Source of the DNA: an uncultured delta proteobacterium
GTDB taxonomy: Bacteria > Desulfobacterota > Desulfobacteria > Desulfobacterales > JAHEIW01
Direction of reading: 5' to 3'
Assembly (NCBI GenBank): GCA_963706575.1
Contig: CAVPNL010000018.1
Span: 32,001 to 96,000 of the forward strand
DNA: 64,000 nt
The translations under genes were made by a program, and so were the position numbers. Positions 38,315-55,695 of the stretch are shown here, one piece after another. Positions within the stretch are counted from its first letter, which is position 1; each line of letters opens with the position of its first letter. The notes under the pieces are model-generated. The model made no database searches. It was given only the letters and a program-made list of their open reading frames with translations, and was not told the origin of the DNA.

Positions 38315-41300
38315 CTATCTTCTTTTCTCTGTCATCGGATCTCTGTCGACTGCCATCTGCCCTTCGTCTCCAGCTAATTGGGGCGCTTCTTCAACCCGCC
38401 GAAATCTGGCCACCACTGAATTTCTGACATCTCTGACAATTAAGTAGAGCGCCGGCACGTAAAGCAGCGTCAGTAAAGTTGCCGCCAGCAATCCAAAACA
38501 GATACTGATCGCCATCGGGATTAAAAATTGAGCCTGGAAACTGGTTTCCAATAGAATGGGTAAGAGTCCGGCGATGGTGGTGATGGAAGTCAGCAGAACC
38601 GGTCTGAATCTGGCCTTGCCGGATTCCACCACCGCTGTTTCAATATCGACACCGCTGCGCACCGCCCGATTGATGAAATCGATTAAAATCAGTGCGTCGT
38701 TGACCACAATTCCTGAAAGGGCCACAATTCCAAAAATACTGATGATGGTAAATTCCATTCCCATGACCAGGTGGCCGAAGACCGCCCCGATCAGACCGAA
38801 GGGAATTGCCATCATGATAATTACCGGCTGGATGTAAGAGCGGAACTGGCTGGCCAGCAGGAGAAAAATCCCCATCATCGCCAGTAGATATCCGGATTTC
38901 AGACTATCAATGGACTCTCCGGTGCGTTTCGCCTGGCCTTCCAGGTCAAAAGAGACGCCCGGATAACGCTCTACCAATTTGGGCAAAAAATTGGCTTTCA
39001 GGTCAGCCACAATCTGGCTGGCGTTGGCAGTGGTTTCATCAATATCCGATATCACCGTCACGGTTCTTTTGCGATCCACCCGATTGATGGTCGAATATGC
39101 CCGGCCGTGCGCGATATCGGCTACCTCTTCGATGGGAATTTCCTGGCCCGCGCTGGTCCGAATCCGCATTTCGTCAAACCCGGAAAGGCTGCTGCGCTGC
39201 TGATCCGCATATCGGACCATGACCTTGACATCATCCCGGCCACGCTGAATGCGCAGGGCCTCTTCGCCGTAAAAGGCCTGGCGAACCTGTCTGGCAAGCC
39301 CCCGCATGGTCACCCCGATGGAGCGCGCACCTTCTTTGACACGCAGCTTTTTCTCCTGCTTGCCGGGTCTAAAATTGTCGGAAATGTCATAGGTGCCGGG
39401 GTAGGTCTCGATTTCATTTTTGAGTTCATCGGCCGCCAGGCTGAGCTGGTCAAAATCGTCTCCGTTCAGTTGAATTTCAATTGCATTTCCGGCCGGCCCC
39501 CCTTCCAGCGTAAAAAACGCCAGGCGATCGATTCCGGGCAATTCGCCGACCTGACTGCGCCAGCGGTTCAGAATTTCATTTGTCGATATTTCCGGCCGTT
39601 CGCCGGAGGTCACCAATTCCACCCAGACCTCCCCGACATGGCTGCCGATTTGTGGGGGTTTCCAATCACGGCGCGGAATCAGTCCCACCAGGGCGAAGGT
39701 GTTTTGAACCAGATCACCGTTTTCCTCTGAGAACTCAGAAAATGCCGTATTCAAATCAAAGGCGTTTGTTTCCAGATGCTGAACGGCGGCTTCGGTCAAG
39801 CTGGCCGGGGTGCCCAGCGGGTAGTTGATTTCGGCGATGAGCCAATCGCTTTCGCCTTTTGGGAAAAAAACAAAGGGCACATATCCGCCGGCCACGATAC
39901 CGAGACTGATGATCAAAACACCGATGCCGATAGATAATGTAAAATATCGATTCTTGACGACATAATTTATGGCCGGTGAATAAATCCGCTTAATGGTGAA
40001 TTGCAGCAGTCCCTCGATGCGCTTTCGCAAACGTTCATGCCACGAATCCAACTTGCGCTTTTCGTTTCTCGGATTGCTTTAAGGCATGGTCCAGGTGGGC
40101 GGGAAGAATGATCAGGGCTTCGCCCAGGGATACGATTAAAATGATGATAACGGCCATGGGCATGACAGCGATGAATTTGCCCATGATGCCCGCAATAAAC
40201 ATCAACGGCAGAAAAGCAACCACCGTGGTTGAAACCGCCATGACAACCGGTCCGCCGACCTCCTTTAGGCCATCGATCACTGCCGCTGAAGGTGATTTGC
40301 CCCGATTATAGTGGGTATAGATGTTCTCACCCACAATAATGGCATCGTCCACCAGGATACCCAGGGTCATAATGAACGCAAACAGTGAGATCATATTGAC
40401 GGTTTGACCAAAGGCATTAAGCACCAGAAATGCCCCCATGAATGAAATGGGGATGCCGATGGCCACCCAGAAGGCCAGCCGGAAATTCAAAAACAGGGCC
40501 AACGCGATAAACACCAGCGTAATTCCCTGAAACCCGTTGCGCACCATTAAATCGATGCGATCGCGCACCAGGACTGACAGGTCGCCCCAGATGGCCAGAT
40601 CGATATCTTTGTTCATCTTATCGTTATGGGCTGCGACGTAGTTTCGCGCGATGTCGGCAATTTCAATGATATCCTGCTCGCTGGTGCGGCTGATCCGCAC
40701 AACCGCGGCCGGTTTGCCGTTAAAACGGGCCTTGATGTCGACATCTGTAAAACCATCGATCACGCTGGCAACCTGCCCGAGTTGCACCACGGTCCCATCC
40801 GCTAAGGTAATCAATGGGATGGCTTCAAATTCCTTGCCGGTATAAAGCTGGCCTTTGGATCTGACCAGAATCTCCCCCTGCGCGGTCTTGATCTTTCCTC
40901 CCGGCAGGTCAATACTGCCCGTTTGAACGGCGTTGACCACCTGGTCAAAGGAAAGTCCGTAGCGGCGCAGATTGTCTTCGGATACTTCAACCGCGATTTC
41001 ATAATCCCGCACGCCGACAAGTTCGATCTGGGTAATTACTTCGGGCTGCCTGAATTTTATTGCGGAAAAAAAACCTTGCTCGGTTGCAGATTTCATTTCC
41101 ATCTGAGAAACAATACGCGGATCCAGCAGATCGGCGCGGATTTTTTCAGCCGCTTGTCGCAGATCTCTTTCAGCAACATTCCCGAAAGCGGCAATATAAA
41201 TGGTCGGATCCCGGTTAATGATTTCAAGTACGAGCGGCTCTTCGGCTTCCTCGGGGAATGTGTCGATGCGATCGACTTCTGCTTTAATCTCATCCAGTAC

Positions 41301-53280: not shown

Positions 53281-54480
53281 TCAACAGCCGTCATCCATCT
53301 TTTCGATCAGATCTAGGAAAAAAGGCAGGCCTGATCCCACAATAATGATACCGCCTGCCAGAACAATACCGCTGGCAAACGTCACCGTCTGCCCCATGTA
53401 TCCGAGCAGTAAGGGGAAAAGCCCACCTCCCAGGACAATGGCGCTCGGTGTCACCCAGGCGGTGGCCAGGCTTCGAAGATTCGGCTGCACGATCCGTGCA
53501 AGGGCGGCGAAACCCGCCGGAAAATAGCACACAATCAGCGCCGGTTGAAGGAACACAACGATCTTGAGCCAAAGATCGGAGACCAGGCCCAGCAAGAGGG
53601 TGACGATCCCTGAGACCAGGAGAAAAACGGAGATTGCCTTTTTTTCTCCGATTCTGTCCGTCACCCAGCCGGCAAAAAAGGTCATGAAAAGGGCGGATAC
53701 CTGGGACAGTCCGATCAGCATGTTGGCCGATGCTTCCGGTATTCCCCGTTCGGCGATCAGATAAAGCGGCATCATGGCGTAAATGCCCACCTGTCCACCC
53801 ATGCCGAGGGCAAAAAGGATGATCATGATCCAGAAGGATCGGCCGGACAATATGATACGGGCCATGGACAGGTCCGGTGCATCCCCCGGAAACTGTCCGA
53901 TGGTTCCGAAACGGATCAATATCACCGCCGTGGCAATACCCGCTATGGCAATAACCACCATGGGCGCGCGCCAGGAAAACCAGGTCAGAAGGAATACGGT
54001 CAGCAAGGGGCCTAAAATAAGGCTCAAGGGCGGAGCCGTCTGCTGGACGGCCAGGGCCTTGCCCCAGTCCTGGCGGCTGACAAGGGCTGTAATGGTGGCC
54101 ACATTCGATGGCAGATTCATGCCCGCCATAAGACCCAGCATCAGCACAGCCCCCCGTAAGGCCCACAACGAGGTAAGCATCGTGCACAGCAGAAGGGCCA
54201 AGGAGGTGCCAATAAGGGACAGGGCGATGGCTCCCTTGTGCTGAATGCGGGATGAGACAAAGCCCGCCGACAGGGAGCCAATAAATACGCCCACCGATCC
54301 GGAAAGGAATATGGAGCCGGCCTGGCTGTGGGAAAGCCCCAGTTCACTGCTCATGGCCGGCATCAGTGGAGCGAAGATAAACCGGCCGATGAAGGTTAGA
54401 AAGAACAGCAGTGTTAGGAAAAGAATACTCCCGATCGCTCCGCTGAACGGTTCCGGTACAGGGCAGTCTTTGTCCGACAC
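53281..54480 (-). CDS. MFS transporter (NNP-like), directly downstream of the MerB-like gene
   Basis: About 12 TM segments; GWVTDRIGEK motif A. Confidence 0.88.
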   Translation of the reverse strand: MSDKDCPVPEPFSGAIGSILFLTLLFFLTFIGRFIFAPLMPAMSSELGLSHSQAGSIFLSGSVGVFIGSLSAGFVSSRIQHKGAIALSLIGTSLALLLCTMLTSLWALRGAVLMLGLMAGMNLPSNVATITALVSRQDWGKALAVQQTAPPLSLILGPLLTVFLLTWFSWRAPMVVIAIAGIATAVILIRFGTIGQFPGDAPDLSMARIILSGRSFWIMIILFALGMGGQVGIYAMMPLYLIAERGIPEASANMLIGLSQVSALFMTFFAGWVTDRIGEKKAISVFLLVSGIVTLLLGLVSDLWLKIVVFLQPALIVCYFPAGFAALARIVQPNLRSLATAWVTPSAIVLGGGLFPLLLGYMGQTVTFASGIVLAGGIIIVGSGLPFFLDLIEKMDDGC

Positions 54481-54515
54481 ATGAAACTCCTTGAATTATG
54501 TGTTTGGCATCTTGT

Positions 54516-55223
54516 TTAAGACTTTGGGCGCCAGAATGCTGAATTTCGAGTTACTTCCTCCAGTCTCTGAAAGAATAGCAGCGCATATTCGTGCGCCGAG
54601 GAAACATAGTGACCGCTCAATTTTTCACTGTGGCGCGAGGTGCTCATAATAGCCATCATATCCGAAACAGGAAGAATTGCCTCCTCTGTACCCGAAACAA
54701 ACCCTGACCATTTTCTTGCATGATCTTCCGACCGGAAGAGATGGATACGGCTTCATGTAAAGGGCCAATTCTCTTCCCATTGACGCCGAGGTATATCGGT
54801 ATACCCACAGATGCCGATAGGGGTTTCATTTTGTATGATGCCATCTCGCACAACAACTTGCATGGACTCACCGCAATCCAGACACGGCGCATCGATCTGG
54901 ACCGACTTTCCTGGAAATACCCAGCAGACCGCCAGGGCTTCAAGACCTCATTGTGCAAACCATTTTTGCTGCCCTTCAACAGTGATACGGTATTGCGTCG
55001 GCAAATTGTTAAATGGCGCAAACGACACCATTAAATCCGTATCGGGGTATAACCACATCGGCATCACATTTGTGTTGATCAGATCATGAAGTCGCTTTTT
55101 GCCTTCATCTGGTTTTACGCCAAACGTGTTGCCTATTTCTGCGTAATGCGGCGCATAGCCTCTTTGGACAAAAGTTTCCATAATGTAGTGGTAAGTTTTA
55201 TCTAATTGATCCGGATCCCCCAT
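54516..55223 (-). CDS. MerB/alkylmercury-lyase-like protein with two in-frame UGA (putative Sec92, Sec157), 235 aa
   Basis: Readthrough translation ...KWFAQ-U-GLEALAVCWVFPGKSVQIDAPCLDCGESMQVVVRDG...NWPFT-U-SRIHLFRSEDHARKW...AFWRPKS-TAA; AGGAG RBS. Confidence 0.85.
54724..54739 (-). promoter_or_regulatory. Putative bacterial SECIS for UGA 54753-54755
   Basis: UCUUCC-GGUC-GGAAGA hairpin; loop begins after 19 nt downstream of the UGA. Confidence 0.7.
54919..54938 (-). promoter_or_regulatory. Putative bacterial SECIS for UGA 54948-54950
   Basis: GCCC-U-GGC-GGUCU-GCU-GGGU hairpin with bulged U; loop begins after 17 nt downstream of the UGA. Confidence 0.65.
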
Positions 55224-55267
55224 ATCTTCTCCTTCCTCTACTCAATACAGCAAGTTGGTTTATAACG

Positions 55268-55695
55268 TCAGGCTAACCCACTTAATAGAGCAGGCAATTC
55301 GTCCAGCGTTTTGATTTCAAAATCTGGTTGAAAAGGCAAACGTTCTGGCCGCTGTCTTTTAATTTTGCCAGAGTATCCTTCACTTCGGGATAGCATTCCA
55401 GCTCAAGATAGGCGTTAATAAGATCGTTTCTCAATTGATTGTCCATGATATTAAAAAGATCCAGTGCGTAATCGAGGGCATCTTGGGTAATCTGCCAAAA
55501 ATCGGCATGTTTTTTCATCAAACTGCGAAGCCAGGTATATTCAAGCTGCTTGGTGCGCCAGATACTTGATACCTGGCCCGAGACATCGCCAAGGCGTTCA
55601 CTATATTTTCCGACAGCGGAATGAACATCAAACAATGTTCCATAAGCATCAAAAACGCAGGCTTTTATATTCGGAATCAGAGATTCTTGCGGCAT
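55268..55695 (-). pseudogene. Haloacid dehalogenase type II with internal deletion
   Basis: FDAYGTLFDV and WRTKQLEYTW, then a jump near 55345 to the out-of-frame C-terminus ERLPFQPDFEIKTLDELPALLSGLA*; central catalytic motifs are missing. Confidence 0.8.

What the first reader, a model, noticed from the sequence alone, without database searches (positions are those of the whole stretch)
54516..55223. Hidden di-selenocysteine MerB-like organometal lyase: both catalytic Cys positions are UGA
Seen: the 91-aa ORF 54948..55223 stops at TGA, but the frame continues to TAA at 54516-54518 with only one more TGA, giving 235 codons with UGA at codons 92 and 157. The contexts are WFAQ-U-GLE-ALAV, a CLDC motif (114/117) and FT-U-SRIHLFRSEDHARKW. 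Established: MerB uses Cys96-x-x-Asp99 and Cys159, with Cys117 between them and an N-terminal helical domain. Here U92-x-x-E95 and U157 have nearly the same spacing (65 vs 63). Inference: this is a selenoenzyme with Sec at both metal-binding sites and Glu in place of Asp, cleaving or binding organometal(loid)s such as methylmercury, or a different substrate. From memory, MerB-related selenoproteins have been reported (SaoL in clostridia), so Sec in this fold is not unprecedented. Whether this two-Sec family is described needs checking. Standard gene callers would fragment this gene.
Basis: partly seen in the sequence, partly recalled or inferred. Interest (0 to 1): 0.92.

Follow-up and report, generated by a model that had tools for sequence, protein, structure and literature searches.

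The report
Two-selenocysteine MerB-like lyase gene
This is one intact gene for a relative of MerB, the enzyme that splits methylmercury, in which both metal-gripping cysteines are replaced by selenocysteine; it belongs to a large, widespread family that databases cut into fragments, and it is a candidate for breaking carbon-metal bonds in oxygen-free sediments.

Summary
Window 54516..55223 (-) is one 235-codon gene with in-frame UGA at codons 92 and 157.

- **Fold:** it is MerB-like (Pfam 59.7 bits; AF2 pLDDT 95; the only significant PDB fold hits are MerB/MerB2).
- **Catalytic sites:** the two UGAs align with MerB Cys96 and Cys159, and Glu95 aligns with Asp99.
- **Both UGAs encode Sec:**
  - each is followed by a GGUC-loop hairpin with compensatory base changes;
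  - hairpin 1 decays where codon 92 is Cys (intact in 59/61 U-state genes, 4/19 C-state genes);
  - the genome has selA, selB, selD and tRNA-Sec;
  - Cys/Sec and Cys/Cys homologs exist;
  - independent metagenome contigs keep both TGAs.
- **Distribution:** at least 545 loci across many phyla. The best 80 are 61 U/U and 19 C/U.
- **Not SaoL:** 43.7 vs 140 bits, no CU motif, no SAO locus.
- **Not canonical MerB:** no mer operon, and no MerA above cutoff in the genome.
- **Context:** the genome carries hgcA.

The function is inferred: carbon-metal protonolysis, with organomercurials the likeliest substrate.

I found no description of a two-Sec MerB family. Peng 2016 does count an undefined "MerB2" selenoprotein family. 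This scan has already noted the family on other genomes.

The parts
54516..55223 (-). Complete coding sequence of the MerB-like selenoprotein (235 codons plus TAA stop at 54516-54518), ATG at 55221-55223
   Evidence: Pfam MerB, residues 73-192. AF2 pLDDT 95, pTM 0.89. Foldseek top 11 hits are all MerB/MerB2.
54948..54950 (-). UGA codon 92 = selenocysteine, aligned with MerB Cys96; Glu95 three residues later aligns with Asp99
   Evidence: TGA in 31/31 order loci. Among named loci, 61 TGA and 19 Cys of 80. Metagenome contigs: 25 TGA, 10 TGC, 0 TGG, 4 not covered, of 39.
54920..54936 (-). SECIS hairpin 1: 6-bp stem (CCUGGC/GCUGGG) with loop GGUCU, starting 11 nt after the UGA; encoded by codons A96-V102
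   Evidence: Fully paired in 59/61 genes with UGA92 but only 4/19 genes with Cys92. Pair 21-37 is G-C in 58 and C-G in 22 of 82 distinct sequences. Synonymous variation is reduced at codons 97-99.
54753..54755 (-). UGA codon 157 = selenocysteine, aligned with MerB Cys159
   Evidence: TGA in 31/31, 80/80 and 39/39. Cys in the rare full-length forms P0052 and P0106.
54724..54739 (-). SECIS hairpin 2: stem UCUUCC/GGAAGA with loop GGUC, starting 13 nt after the UGA; encoded by L162-F-R-S-E-D167. It has 6 bp here and 7 bp in most relatives, which have GAG/GAA at codon 167.
   Evidence: Codons 163-166 are TTC CGG TCG GAA in 31/31 genes. Loop GGUC in 98/102 distinct sequences. Compensatory changes at pairs 22-39, 27-34 and 28-33.
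55229..55234 (-). Shine-Dalgarno-like AAGGAG, 5 nt upstream of the ATG
   Evidence: Read directly.
53281..54480 (-). MFS transporter gene starting 35 nt after the MerB-like stop on the same strand (probably co-transcribed). This pairing is specific to this window's lineage and is not a family-wide partner.
   Evidence: Pfam MFS_1 E=4.9e-39. No MFS cluster recurs among 81 loci. An X2 contig bridges both genes.

Best explanation
The gene encodes a cytoplasmic, stand-alone MerB-fold enzyme. Its metal-binding and catalytic triad is Sec92 / Glu95 / Sec157, in place of MerB's Cys96 / Asp99 / Cys159.

**Shown.** Translation reads through two UGA codons as selenocysteine. Each UGA is served by its own SECIS hairpin with a GGUC apical loop, and the genome has a complete SelA/SelB/SelD/tRNA-Sec system.

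**Inferred.** By homology of fold and triad, the protein binds an organometallic cation between its two selenolates, and the conserved carboxylate protonates the carbon. That cleaves the carbon-metal bond, as MerB does with R-Hg+. Organomercurials such as methylmercury are the likeliest substrates. Selenolates would give tighter and faster capture than thiolates in sulfidic, thiol-rich anoxic habitats.

**Speculative.** Because there is no adjacent mer operon and no MerA above cutoff in this genome, the metal product would not be reduced to Hg(0). It would have to pass to thiols, sulfide or an exporter, possibly via the family-specific Cys114-x-x-Cys117 pair.

The window's copy was probably acquired horizontally.
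For: **Selenoprotein status**
- Sec machinery: selA 604.8 bits, selB 376.5, selD 380.3 with its own in-frame TGA, tRNA-Sec 75.2.
- Sec/Cys pairs at both columns: 19/80 named loci have Cys92, and P0052 and P0106 have Cys at both.
- SECIS hairpins at both sites.
- Zero synonymous variation at codons 163-166 in 31/31 genes, while other conserved codons vary.
- Hairpin 1 is intact in 59/61 U-state genes and 4/19 C-state genes. Hairpin 2 has 7/7 pairs in 19/19 C-state genes.
- Compensatory pair changes: G-C 58 / C-G 22 at one pair of hairpin 1, and three covarying pairs in hairpin 2.
- TGA is an ordinary stop here: it ends 17 of 51 long ORFs in the window.
- No difference is reported at either TGA in independent contigs X1, X2 and X4. 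All six X4 differences fall on third codon positions.

**MerB-like chemistry**
- PF03243 59.7 bits against a cutoff of 27.
- Residue-level alignment to MerB/MerB2.
- AF2 pLDDT 95.
- All 11 Foldseek hits at E<=0.001 are MerB/MerB2, with TM 0.49-0.69.
- The acidic residue at +3 is E in 78 and D in 1 of 80, and E in 29 and D in 2 of 31.

**Context**
- hgcA at 447.8 bits against a cutoff of 275 in this genome.
- In the order sample, 40/52 carriers of the gene have hgcA, against 152/349 non-carriers.

**Horizontal origin**
- The window's copy is sister to two Nitrospiraceae MAG copies (SH-aLRT 91) in a cross-phylum clade. The genome's 45%-identical second copy sits in another clade (quick tree).
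Against: - No experiment shows Se incorporation or any activity.
- The gene is not in a mer operon, and no neighbour recurs in more than 7 of 81 loci. No MerA reaches its cutoff in this genome (best 344 vs 454 bits). A complete MerB-type detoxification route is therefore not evident.
- Hg-Se bonds are stronger than Hg-S bonds (general chemistry), which could make product release slow or limit the enzyme to one turnover.
- The triad is not literally MerB's: Sec/Glu/Sec. One of the 80 named loci has Lys at the acid position (L086).
- The hgcA enrichment is not corrected for phylogeny or genome size. 12 of 52 carriers lack hgcA. The Cys92 forms occur in lineages labelled Alphaproteobacteria, Burkholderiales and Rickettsiales, where I did not test for hgcA.
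- In the window, hairpin 2 has 6 bp rather than 7, because codon 167 is GAU.
Confidence: 0.6

Rival explanations
1. Same two-Sec MerB-fold enzyme, but the physiological substrate is not an organomercurial. It could be another carbon-metal(loid) compound (for example organo-arsenic, -tin, -lead, -antimony or -tellurium species) or a transient organometallic metabolite, as Haft and Gwadz proposed for the SAO system.
For: - Haft and Gwadz argue that Sec at the metal site makes an organomercurial-only profile uncertain for SaoL, and that MerB accepts other metals (passages read).
- There is no mer context.
- Asp is replaced by Glu, and there is an extra CxxC.
- A B12-binding radical SAM gene lies directly upstream in 3 of 21 loci.
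- The family occurs in many habitats and phyla.
Against: - The only characterised activity of the fold is Hg-C protonolysis.
- Enrichment in hgcA-bearing genomes points toward mercury.
- No arsenic, tin or other metal-specific genes recur nearby.
Confidence: 0.22
2. A non-catalytic metal-binding protein (scavenger, chaperone or sensor). It would hold a soft metal ion such as Hg(II), Cu(I) or Cd(II) on a Se2S2 site made of U92, U157, C114 and C117, possibly coupled to the N-terminal winged-helix-like domain.
For: - The four Cys/Sec residues are invariant or nearly so.
- Hg-Se affinity would favour sequestration (general chemistry).
- The N-terminal 60 residues weakly resemble winged-helix DNA-binding domains such as LexA and MntR (Foldseek E>1).
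- The stand-alone genomic position fits.
Against: - The acidic proton-donor position is kept (E/D in 79 of 80). A pure binding site would not need it.
- MerB itself has the same N-terminal domain without binding DNA (established knowledge).
- The winged-helix hits are not significant.
- C114 aligns with MerB Cys117, which I recall as a buried structural residue rather than a ligand.
Confidence: 0.12
3. Not one gene: a pseudogene or three separate short ORFs, with the TGAs acting as real stops or arising from sequencing errors.
For: - Table-11 gene calling gives only a 91-aa ORF.
- Databases hold 155-aa pieces.
Against: - Both TGAs are conserved in 31/31, 61/80 (with Cys in the rest) and 39/39 loci, with strong protein conservation through them.
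- SECIS hairpins show covariation.
- Independent contigs agree.
Confidence: 0.02
4. TGA is read as Trp or Gly under an alternative genetic code, as the JGI full-length entries with W at both sites suggest.
For: Seven of the 14 database proteins I fetched show W at both columns.
Against: - TGA ends 17 of 51 ORFs of at least 200 aa in the window.
- The genome has full Sec machinery.
- Homologs carry Cys, never TGG, at these columns: 0 TGG in 80 named loci and in 39 metagenome contigs.
- The hairpins track the UGA state.
Confidence: 0.01

Closest known systems
SaoL, the 'selenocysteine-assisted organometallic lyase' (NCBIfam NF040728; Haft & Gwadz, bioRxiv 10.1101/2022.07.06.499078, passages read)
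   Same: - MerB fold (PF03243).
- Sec at the position of MerB Cys159.
- Found in anaerobes.
- Cut short at the UGA in databases.
- Proposed to act on organometallic compounds.
   Different: - SaoL has one Sec, in a Cys-Sec dipeptide, and keeps Cys99 and Asp102. This family has Sec at both ligand positions in most members, T/A/S before the second Sec, and Glu as the acid.
- The window protein scores 43.7 bits against the SaoL cutoff of 140.
- SaoL marks a nine-gene SAO locus. This gene stands alone.
- This family adds an invariant CxxC and a roughly 40-residue C-terminal helical extension.
MerB organomercurial lyase of mer operons (E. coli plasmid R831b, PDB 3f0o/3f0p/3f2f) and MerB2 (PDB 5c17)
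   Same: - Same fold (Foldseek E 2e-9 to 2e-6, TM 0.49-0.69).
- Triad positions aligned residue by residue.
- MerB Cys117 is conserved as C114.
- Similar N-terminal helical domain.
   Different: - 15-23% identity.
- Sec/Glu/Sec instead of Cys/Asp/Cys.
- NCBIfam MerB models score 22.8-25.8 bits against cutoffs of 193-200.
- No merA, merR, merT or merP beside it, and no MerA above cutoff in the genome.
'Organic mercuric lyase MerB2' selenoprotein family counted in Peng et al. 2016 (ISME J, PMC5029168, Table S3, read)
   Same: A Sec-containing MerB homolog listed among 'known and previously predicted' bacterial selenoprotein families (17 organisms, 17 proteins).
   Different: - The table gives no motif, Sec number, accession or organism list, so I cannot tell whether it is SaoL, this family or both.
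- The 2026 catalogue (PMC13188914, Table 1) merges the older MerB-like entry with SaoL as one Sec in a CU motif.
Cys92/Sec157 and Cys/Cys forms of the same family (e.g. P0076 'organomercurial lyase [Ca. Sulfotelmatobacter]', 155 aa, truncated; P0052 and P0106, full length)
   Same: - 41-67% identical to the window protein.
- Same motifs, and the same second SECIS in the C/U forms.
   Different: - One Sec or none.
- Hairpin 1 has decayed in most C/U forms.
- The C/U forms come mainly from lineages labelled Alphaproteobacteria, Burkholderiales, Rickettsiales, Acidobacteriota, Methylomirabilota, Rokubacteria, Nitrospinota and Tectomicrobia.

Membership tests
Bacterial selenoprotein (SelB/SECIS-dependent UGA recoding) | In-frame UGA aligned with Cys in homologs | tested here: met
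   Site 92: Cys in 19/80 named loci and TGC in 10/35 covered metagenome contigs. Site 157: Cys in P0052 and P0106.
Bacterial selenoprotein (SelB/SECIS-dependent UGA recoding) | Stem-loop shortly downstream of the UGA with G in the apical loop, under RNA-level selection | tested here: met
   Both hairpins found, with frozen synonymous codons, decay when Sec becomes Cys and compensatory pairs. No Rfam model matched. The genome's own selD has a G-rich loop at a similar distance.
Bacterial selenoprotein (SelB/SECIS-dependent UGA recoding) | selA, selB, selD and tRNA-Sec in the genome | tested here: met
   All four score above their curated cutoffs.
Bacterial selenoprotein (SelB/SECIS-dependent UGA recoding) | Selenium demonstrated in the protein | not testable with these tools
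   Needs 75Se labelling or mass spectrometry.
MerB family (Pfam PF03243) / MerB fold | Profile match over the gathering score, and the MerB fold | tested here: met
   59.7 bits against 27. The Foldseek top 11 hits are all MerB/MerB2.
Organomercurial lyase MerB (NCBIfam NF033555 / NF009710, EC 4.99.1.2) | Score over the curated equivalog cutoff | tested here: not met
   22.8 bits against 200, and 25.8 against 193.
Organomercurial lyase MerB (NCBIfam NF033555 / NF009710, EC 4.99.1.2) | Cys96 / Asp99 / Cys159 triad | tested here: not met
   The three columns are occupied by Sec, Glu and Sec. The positions and chemical roles are analogous, but the residues are not literally MerB's.
Organomercurial lyase MerB (NCBIfam NF033555 / NF009710, EC 4.99.1.2) | mer operon context (merA, merR, merT/P) | tested here: not met
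   None found among the neighbours of 21 + 81 loci. No MerA above cutoff in the genome.
Organomercurial lyase MerB (NCBIfam NF033555 / NF009710, EC 4.99.1.2) | Hg-C protonolysis activity | not testable with these tools
   Needs an enzyme assay.
SaoL (NF040728) | Score over the curated cutoff of 140 bits | tested here: not met
   43.7 bits for the window protein, 44.3 for the genome's second copy and 53.1 for the third.
SaoL (NF040728) | Cys-Sec dipeptide at the Cys159 site, with Cys retained at the Cys96 site | tested here: not met
   T-U here and T/A/S-U in relatives. Sec at the first site.
SaoL (NF040728) | Membership of the nine-gene SAO locus | tested here: not met
   The neighbours are an MFS transporter, a HAD fragment and a GGDEF protein. 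No ABC-transporter or SaoT/C/E-like set recurs. The Sao family models were not scanned individually.
MbdU 'metal-binding double selenoprotein' (NF045648) and other two-Sec families in the 2026 catalogue | Match to the family model | tested here: not met
   The NCBIfam scan of the window protein at E<=0.01 returned only SaoL and two MerB models.

The most novel reading that the evidence does not exclude
This family is a selenium-dependent, mer-operon-independent methylmercury demethylase. It would be used by anaerobic mercury methylators and other sediment bacteria (in Cys/Sec form also by some aerobes), and would be the unidentified enzyme behind non-mer methylmercury degradation in anoxic environments. 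Such an enzyme would tie the selenium and mercury cycles together at the enzyme level.
Probability: 0.25. Interest if true: 0.9.

Novelty: new variant of a known kind. Interest (0 to 1): 0.75.

Why it matters
MerB is the only known enzyme that cleaves the Hg-C bond. As I recall the field, how methylmercury is degraded in anoxic sediments by organisms without mer operons is still unsettled.

- **A testable candidate.** A large family, missed by annotation, keeps MerB's fold and triad but uses selenolates at both metal ligands. It is enriched in hgcA-bearing genomes. That gives a concrete candidate that can be tested directly.
- **A case for Sec biology.** Proteins with two separately recoded Sec residues, each with its own SECIS, are rare. 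The U/U, C/U and C/C series within one family is a natural experiment on why Sec is kept at one ligand more strictly than at the other.
- **A practical consequence.** Gene callers split or truncate these genes, or mistranslate them with Trp. merB-based surveys of mercury-cycling potential will therefore miss or misread them.

Tried and rejected
- **Rfam:** the scan of 54400-55300 at E<=10 gave no match. This is uninformative about SECIS.
- **Conserved operon:** none found in 21 loci or 81 loci. Only small sub-clade themes appeared:
  - a divergent LysR regulator in 5/81;
  - a C_GCAxxG_C_C protein upstream in 2;
  - a B12-radical SAM gene upstream in 3.
- **Expression:** the only RNA contig laid (X16) covers 54400-54505 and does not reach the gene, so it gives no evidence either way.
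- **Prior description:** four full-text searches found only SaoL. The following do not mention MerB, mercury lyase or a two-Sec MerB:
  - GOS 2008, main text and 4 supplements;
  - Olavius 2007, main text;
  - Peng 2016, main text.

  Only Peng's Table S3 has a bare count line.
- **selD control:** my first attempt picked an upstream TGA. It was redone correctly.
- **Tree:** the careful search did not finish in 300 s, so the tree cited is the quick one.
- **Not used:** Complex prediction and the search of protein representatives, because no binding claim or extra depth was needed.
- **Active-site distances:** I could not measure them in the AF2 model because no coordinates were available to scripts. 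Spatial grouping of 92/95/157 rests on homology.
- **hgcA association:** it could not be phylogeny-corrected, because family and genus labels of most non-matching genomes are not listed.
Full report
**Observation.** Window 54516..55223 on the minus strand reads as 235 codons from ATG to TAA, with TGA at codons 92 and 157 and no other stop. A standard ORF list shows only the first 91 codons. An AAGGAG motif lies 5 nt before the ATG.

**Family and fold.**
- The read-through protein matches Pfam MerB (PF03243, E=3.6e-16, 59.7 bits against a cutoff of 27, residues 73-192).
- It falls far below every curated NCBIfam equivalog: SaoL 43.7/140, and MerB 25.8/193 and 22.8/200.
- phmmer against PDB sequences finds MerB2 (5c17, E=2.3e-7) and MerB. 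The printed alignments put U92 on Cys96, E95 on Asp99, C114 on Cys117 and U157 on Cys159.
- An AlphaFold2 model built on a 38-row alignment has mean pLDDT 95 and pTM 0.89.
- Foldseek against the PDB returns 11 hits at E<=0.001, all MerB or MerB2 (E 1.9e-9 to 1.6e-6, TM 0.49-0.69). Nothing else is below E=1.
- I could not measure inter-residue distances in the model.

**Both UGAs encode selenocysteine.**
1. *Machinery.* The genome (5.67 Mb, 25 contigs, 91.8% complete) has selA, selB, a selD that itself carries an in-frame TGA, and tRNA-Sec, all above curated cutoffs.
2. *Conservation in relatives.*
   - A six-frame scan of 401 genomes of the same order gave 54 matches at E<=2.8e-43, and all 54 contain exactly two TGAs.
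   - In the 31 genes I extracted, both TGAs sit in the same columns, 65 codons apart, and conservation continues through them. The conserved motifs are KWF.Q-U-.FE.LAV, PCLDCG and U-..M..FRSEEH.
   - A phylum-level scan added 45 matches at E<=2e-50. Of these, 41 have exactly two TGAs. The other four have three TGAs (G521), two TGAs plus a TAG (G786, G706), or one TGA plus a TAA (G715).
3. *Cys homologs.*
   - Among the best 80 of at least 545 named genome loci, 61 are U/U and 19 are Cys/U.
   - Two full-length database proteins have Cys at both sites (P0052, P0106).
4. *SECIS.* Each UGA is followed by a hairpin with a GGUC apical loop.
   - Hairpin 1 has a 6-bp stem and hairpin 2 a 7-bp stem (6 bp in the window). 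The loop G's lie at about +21 to +24 from the U of UGA.
   - From memory, this matches the geometry of the E. coli fdhF SECIS.
   - The genome's own selD has a G-rich loop at +24/+25.
5. *RNA-level selection.*
   - Codons F163-R164-S165-E166 are TTC-CGG-TCG-GAA in 31 of 31 genes, although Arg and Ser each have six codons. Other invariant residues vary freely at synonymous sites.
   - Hairpin 1 is fully paired in 59 of 61 genes with UGA92 but in only 4 of 19 with Cys92. Hairpin 2 is 7/7 with a GGUC loop in all 19 of those.
   - Compensatory changes occur at pair 21-37 of hairpin 1 (G-C 58, C-G 22, non-pair 1, G-U 1, of 82 distinct sequences).
   - They also occur at three pairs of hairpin 2. 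For example, C-G 93 / U-A 9 of 102 couples a Glu-to-Lys replacement at codon 166 to a synonymous Phe codon change.
6. *Not another genetic code.*
   - TGA ends 17 of the 51 ORFs of at least 200 aa in the window.
   - The JGI entries with Trp at both sites (7 of the 14 proteins I fetched) are mistranslations.
   - A pattern allowing TGA or TGG at codon 157 found 39 metagenome contigs, and all 39 have TGA.
   - At codon 92 they have TGA in 25, TGC in 10, none with TGG, and 4 not covered.
7. *Not a sequencing error.*
   - Contigs of three DNA runs from different studies report no difference at the TGA codons they cover. X1 covers both, X2 covers both (the first about 22 nt from a contig end), and X4 covers the second.
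   - All six differences in the X4 contig fall on third codon positions of the read-through frame.

**How databases hold it.**
- Of 259 relatives at E<=0.001, the 120 listed were mostly 150-176-aa proteins (most 154-155 aa) at 53-67% identity. The five I fetched have Cys92 and end just before column 157. One is named 'organomercurial lyase' in a Candidatus Sulfotelmatobacter MAG.
- The listing also holds full-length entries; the seven JGI ones I fetched have W at both sites. Only two full-length NCBI-sourced entries appeared, and both are Cys/Cys.

**Context.**
- In the window, the gene is followed after 35 nt by an MFS transporter on the same strand. It is preceded by a truncated HAD-type-II hydrolase gene and a GGDEF-FHA protein.
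- Across 21 and then 81 loci, no neighbour recurs in more than 7 loci, and no mer genes appear.
- Small themes:
  - a divergent LysR regulator in 5 of 81 loci, all from the window's clade;
  - a C_GCAxxG_C_C protein directly upstream in 2 loci;
  - a B12-binding radical SAM gene directly upstream in 3 loci.
- The genome has no MerA above cutoff (best 344 vs 454 bits).
- It has three PF03243 genes, all with two in-frame TGAs:
  - the window's copy;
  - a 45%-identical copy on contig 1;
  - a divergent third copy with U126-A-V-D and U201 followed by ..FFRSEEH, which also scores below the SaoL cutoff (53.1/140).
- The genome carries hgcA (447.8 bits against a cutoff of 275).
- In the order sample, 40 of 52 genomes with the gene have hgcA, against 152 of 349 without it (odds ratio 4.3, Fisher p=6e-6).
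  - The 52 include two partial matches (G301, G065).
  - The test is not corrected for relatedness or genome size.
  - 12 carriers lack hgcA.
  - hgcA is much more common than this gene within several genera.

**Origin of the window's copy.**
- Its closest relatives are two Nitrospiraceae MAG copies (75 and 74% identity). The best match in its own order is 71%, and most others there are 40-54%.
- On a quick maximum-likelihood tree of 85 rows, it is sister to the Nitrospiraceae pair (SH-aLRT 91). The surrounding 21-row clade mixes labels from Nitrospirota, Chloroflexota, Bacteroidota, Bacillota and Thermodesulfobacteriota.
- The genome's second copy lies in a separate 41-row clade (support 100).
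- The Cys92 state needs about 6 changes on the tree, and at least 3 are forced by well-supported branches. The two Cys/Cys proteins nest among U/U genes (the careful search did not finish).
- An X1 contig holds a near-identical copy (4 differences in 736 nt) that diverges from the window 26 nt after the stop codon. This hints at a different downstream context.
- These points fit horizontal transfer.

**Mechanism.**
- *Shown:* one gene, the MerB fold, Sec at both ligand columns, a conserved acid at +3, two SECIS elements, and Sec machinery.
- *Inferred from MerB's established mechanism* (two thiolates bind R-Hg+ and Asp99 protonates the carbon; triad residues as quoted): the two selenolates bind an organometal cation and Glu95 protonates the leaving carbon.
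- *Speculative:* the fate of the metal product without MerA, a thiol-relay role for C114-x-x-C117, and export by the adjacent MFS protein in this lineage.
- Sec is retained much more strictly at column 157 than at column 92. Column 157 is also the position of SaoL's single Sec. This suggests that this ligand is the one where selenium matters most.

**Comparison and novelty.**
- The closest described family is SaoL. It shares the fold and Sec at the Cys159 position, but differs in Sec number, motif, acid residue, model score and genomic setting.
- The 2026 catalogue of 119 prokaryotic selenoprotein families lists only SaoL under PF03243, with one Sec (Table 1 read in full).
- None of the two-Sec families with NCBIfam models matched.
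- Four full-text searches found nothing else.
- One caveat: Peng 2016's Table S3 counts an 'Organic mercuric lyase MerB2' selenoprotein family in 17 organisms without further detail. Sec-containing MerB homologs were therefore on lists before SaoL, and that entry may include members of this family.
- I found no statement anywhere of two Sec residues at both catalytic positions. Subscription-only papers and bioRxiv supplements were not searchable.
- This scan has already reported the same family on five other genomes, with the same reading. My tests were made independently on this window.

**Verdict.** This is a real and apparently undescribed two-selenocysteine branch of the MerB family. Its function is inferred, and its ecological role is open and testable.

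Noticed in passing
window 55282..55695 (-): The haloacid-dehalogenase type II gene directly upstream is truncated. The 137-aa ORF matches only positions 1-109 of the 197-position TIGR01428 profile (98.1 bits against a cutoff of 125.4) and then runs into unrelated sequence before the MerB-like gene's ribosome-binding site. It may be a remnant of the rearrangement that brought the MerB-like/MFS pair here.
   Followed up: partly
L183:1186-1932 (+) = G000 contig 6, about 39024-39770: A third, divergent MerB-fold gene in the same genome also has two in-frame TGAs. U126 lies in U-A-V-D, which is MerB's C-x-x-D spacing with Asp. U201 is followed by QKSVFFRSEEH. It also has a CxxC (VCAHC). It scores 53.1 bits against the SaoL cutoff of 140. 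It seems to represent a second two-Sec MerB-like subfamily; weak two-TGA matches appear in G107, G351, G068 and G307.
   Followed up: partly
G000 contig 24:15398-16375 (L166) and contig 6:512100-513080 (L167, L168, L170): The genome has an intact hgcA (447.8 bits). It also has a second hgcA-like stretch that matches the model in three separate pieces (positions 1-40, 38-172 and 179-324), possibly a frameshifted or split copy.
   Followed up: no
G000 contig 3:438965-439886 (L011, L012): Besides the intact selD on contig 5, there is a second selD-like gene. It matches in two adjacent pieces (positions 3-198 with one TGA, and 204-310), which suggests a split or frameshifted paralog.
   Followed up: no
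L056:2757-3068 (+) and L058:7794-8288 (-): In two close relatives of the window's gene, a C_GCAxxG_C_C family ORF sits immediately upstream. In L056 the ORF matches the profile only from position 36, so its N-terminus may be cut at a UGA. This family is listed as a selenoprotein family in the 2026 catalogue.
   Followed up: no
L060:5294-7156, L065:5050-7038, L072:5366-6910 (all + strand): In three loci a radical SAM gene lies directly upstream on the same strand; the B12-binding domain was detected in L060 and L072. In two of them (L060, L072) the MerB-like gene is followed by an unannotated 330-aa ORF and a DUF362 protein. This is a possible sub-clade operon involving methyl-transfer chemistry.
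   Followed up: no
window 54490-55225, run X1 record 4: A metagenome contig holds a copy of the gene with 4 differences in 736 nt. It continues into 75 nt of unlike sequence 26 nt after the stop codon, whereas an X2 contig runs on into the MFS gene as in the window. The gene may sit in different contexts in near-identical strains, or the contig may be chimeric.
   Followed up: no
L086:4001-4702 (Nitrospiraceae MAG): One of the 80 named loci has Lys instead of Glu/Asp at the proton-donor position (U-G-F-K). This may be an inactive variant, a different chemistry or an assembly error.
   Followed up: no
Database proteins P0002-P0005, P0008, P0011, P0013: Full-length JGI entries of this family carry Trp at both Sec columns. 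The gene caller evidently read TGA as Trp on these short contigs. Such entries could mislead homology-based tests of Sec against non-Cys residues.
   Followed up: yes
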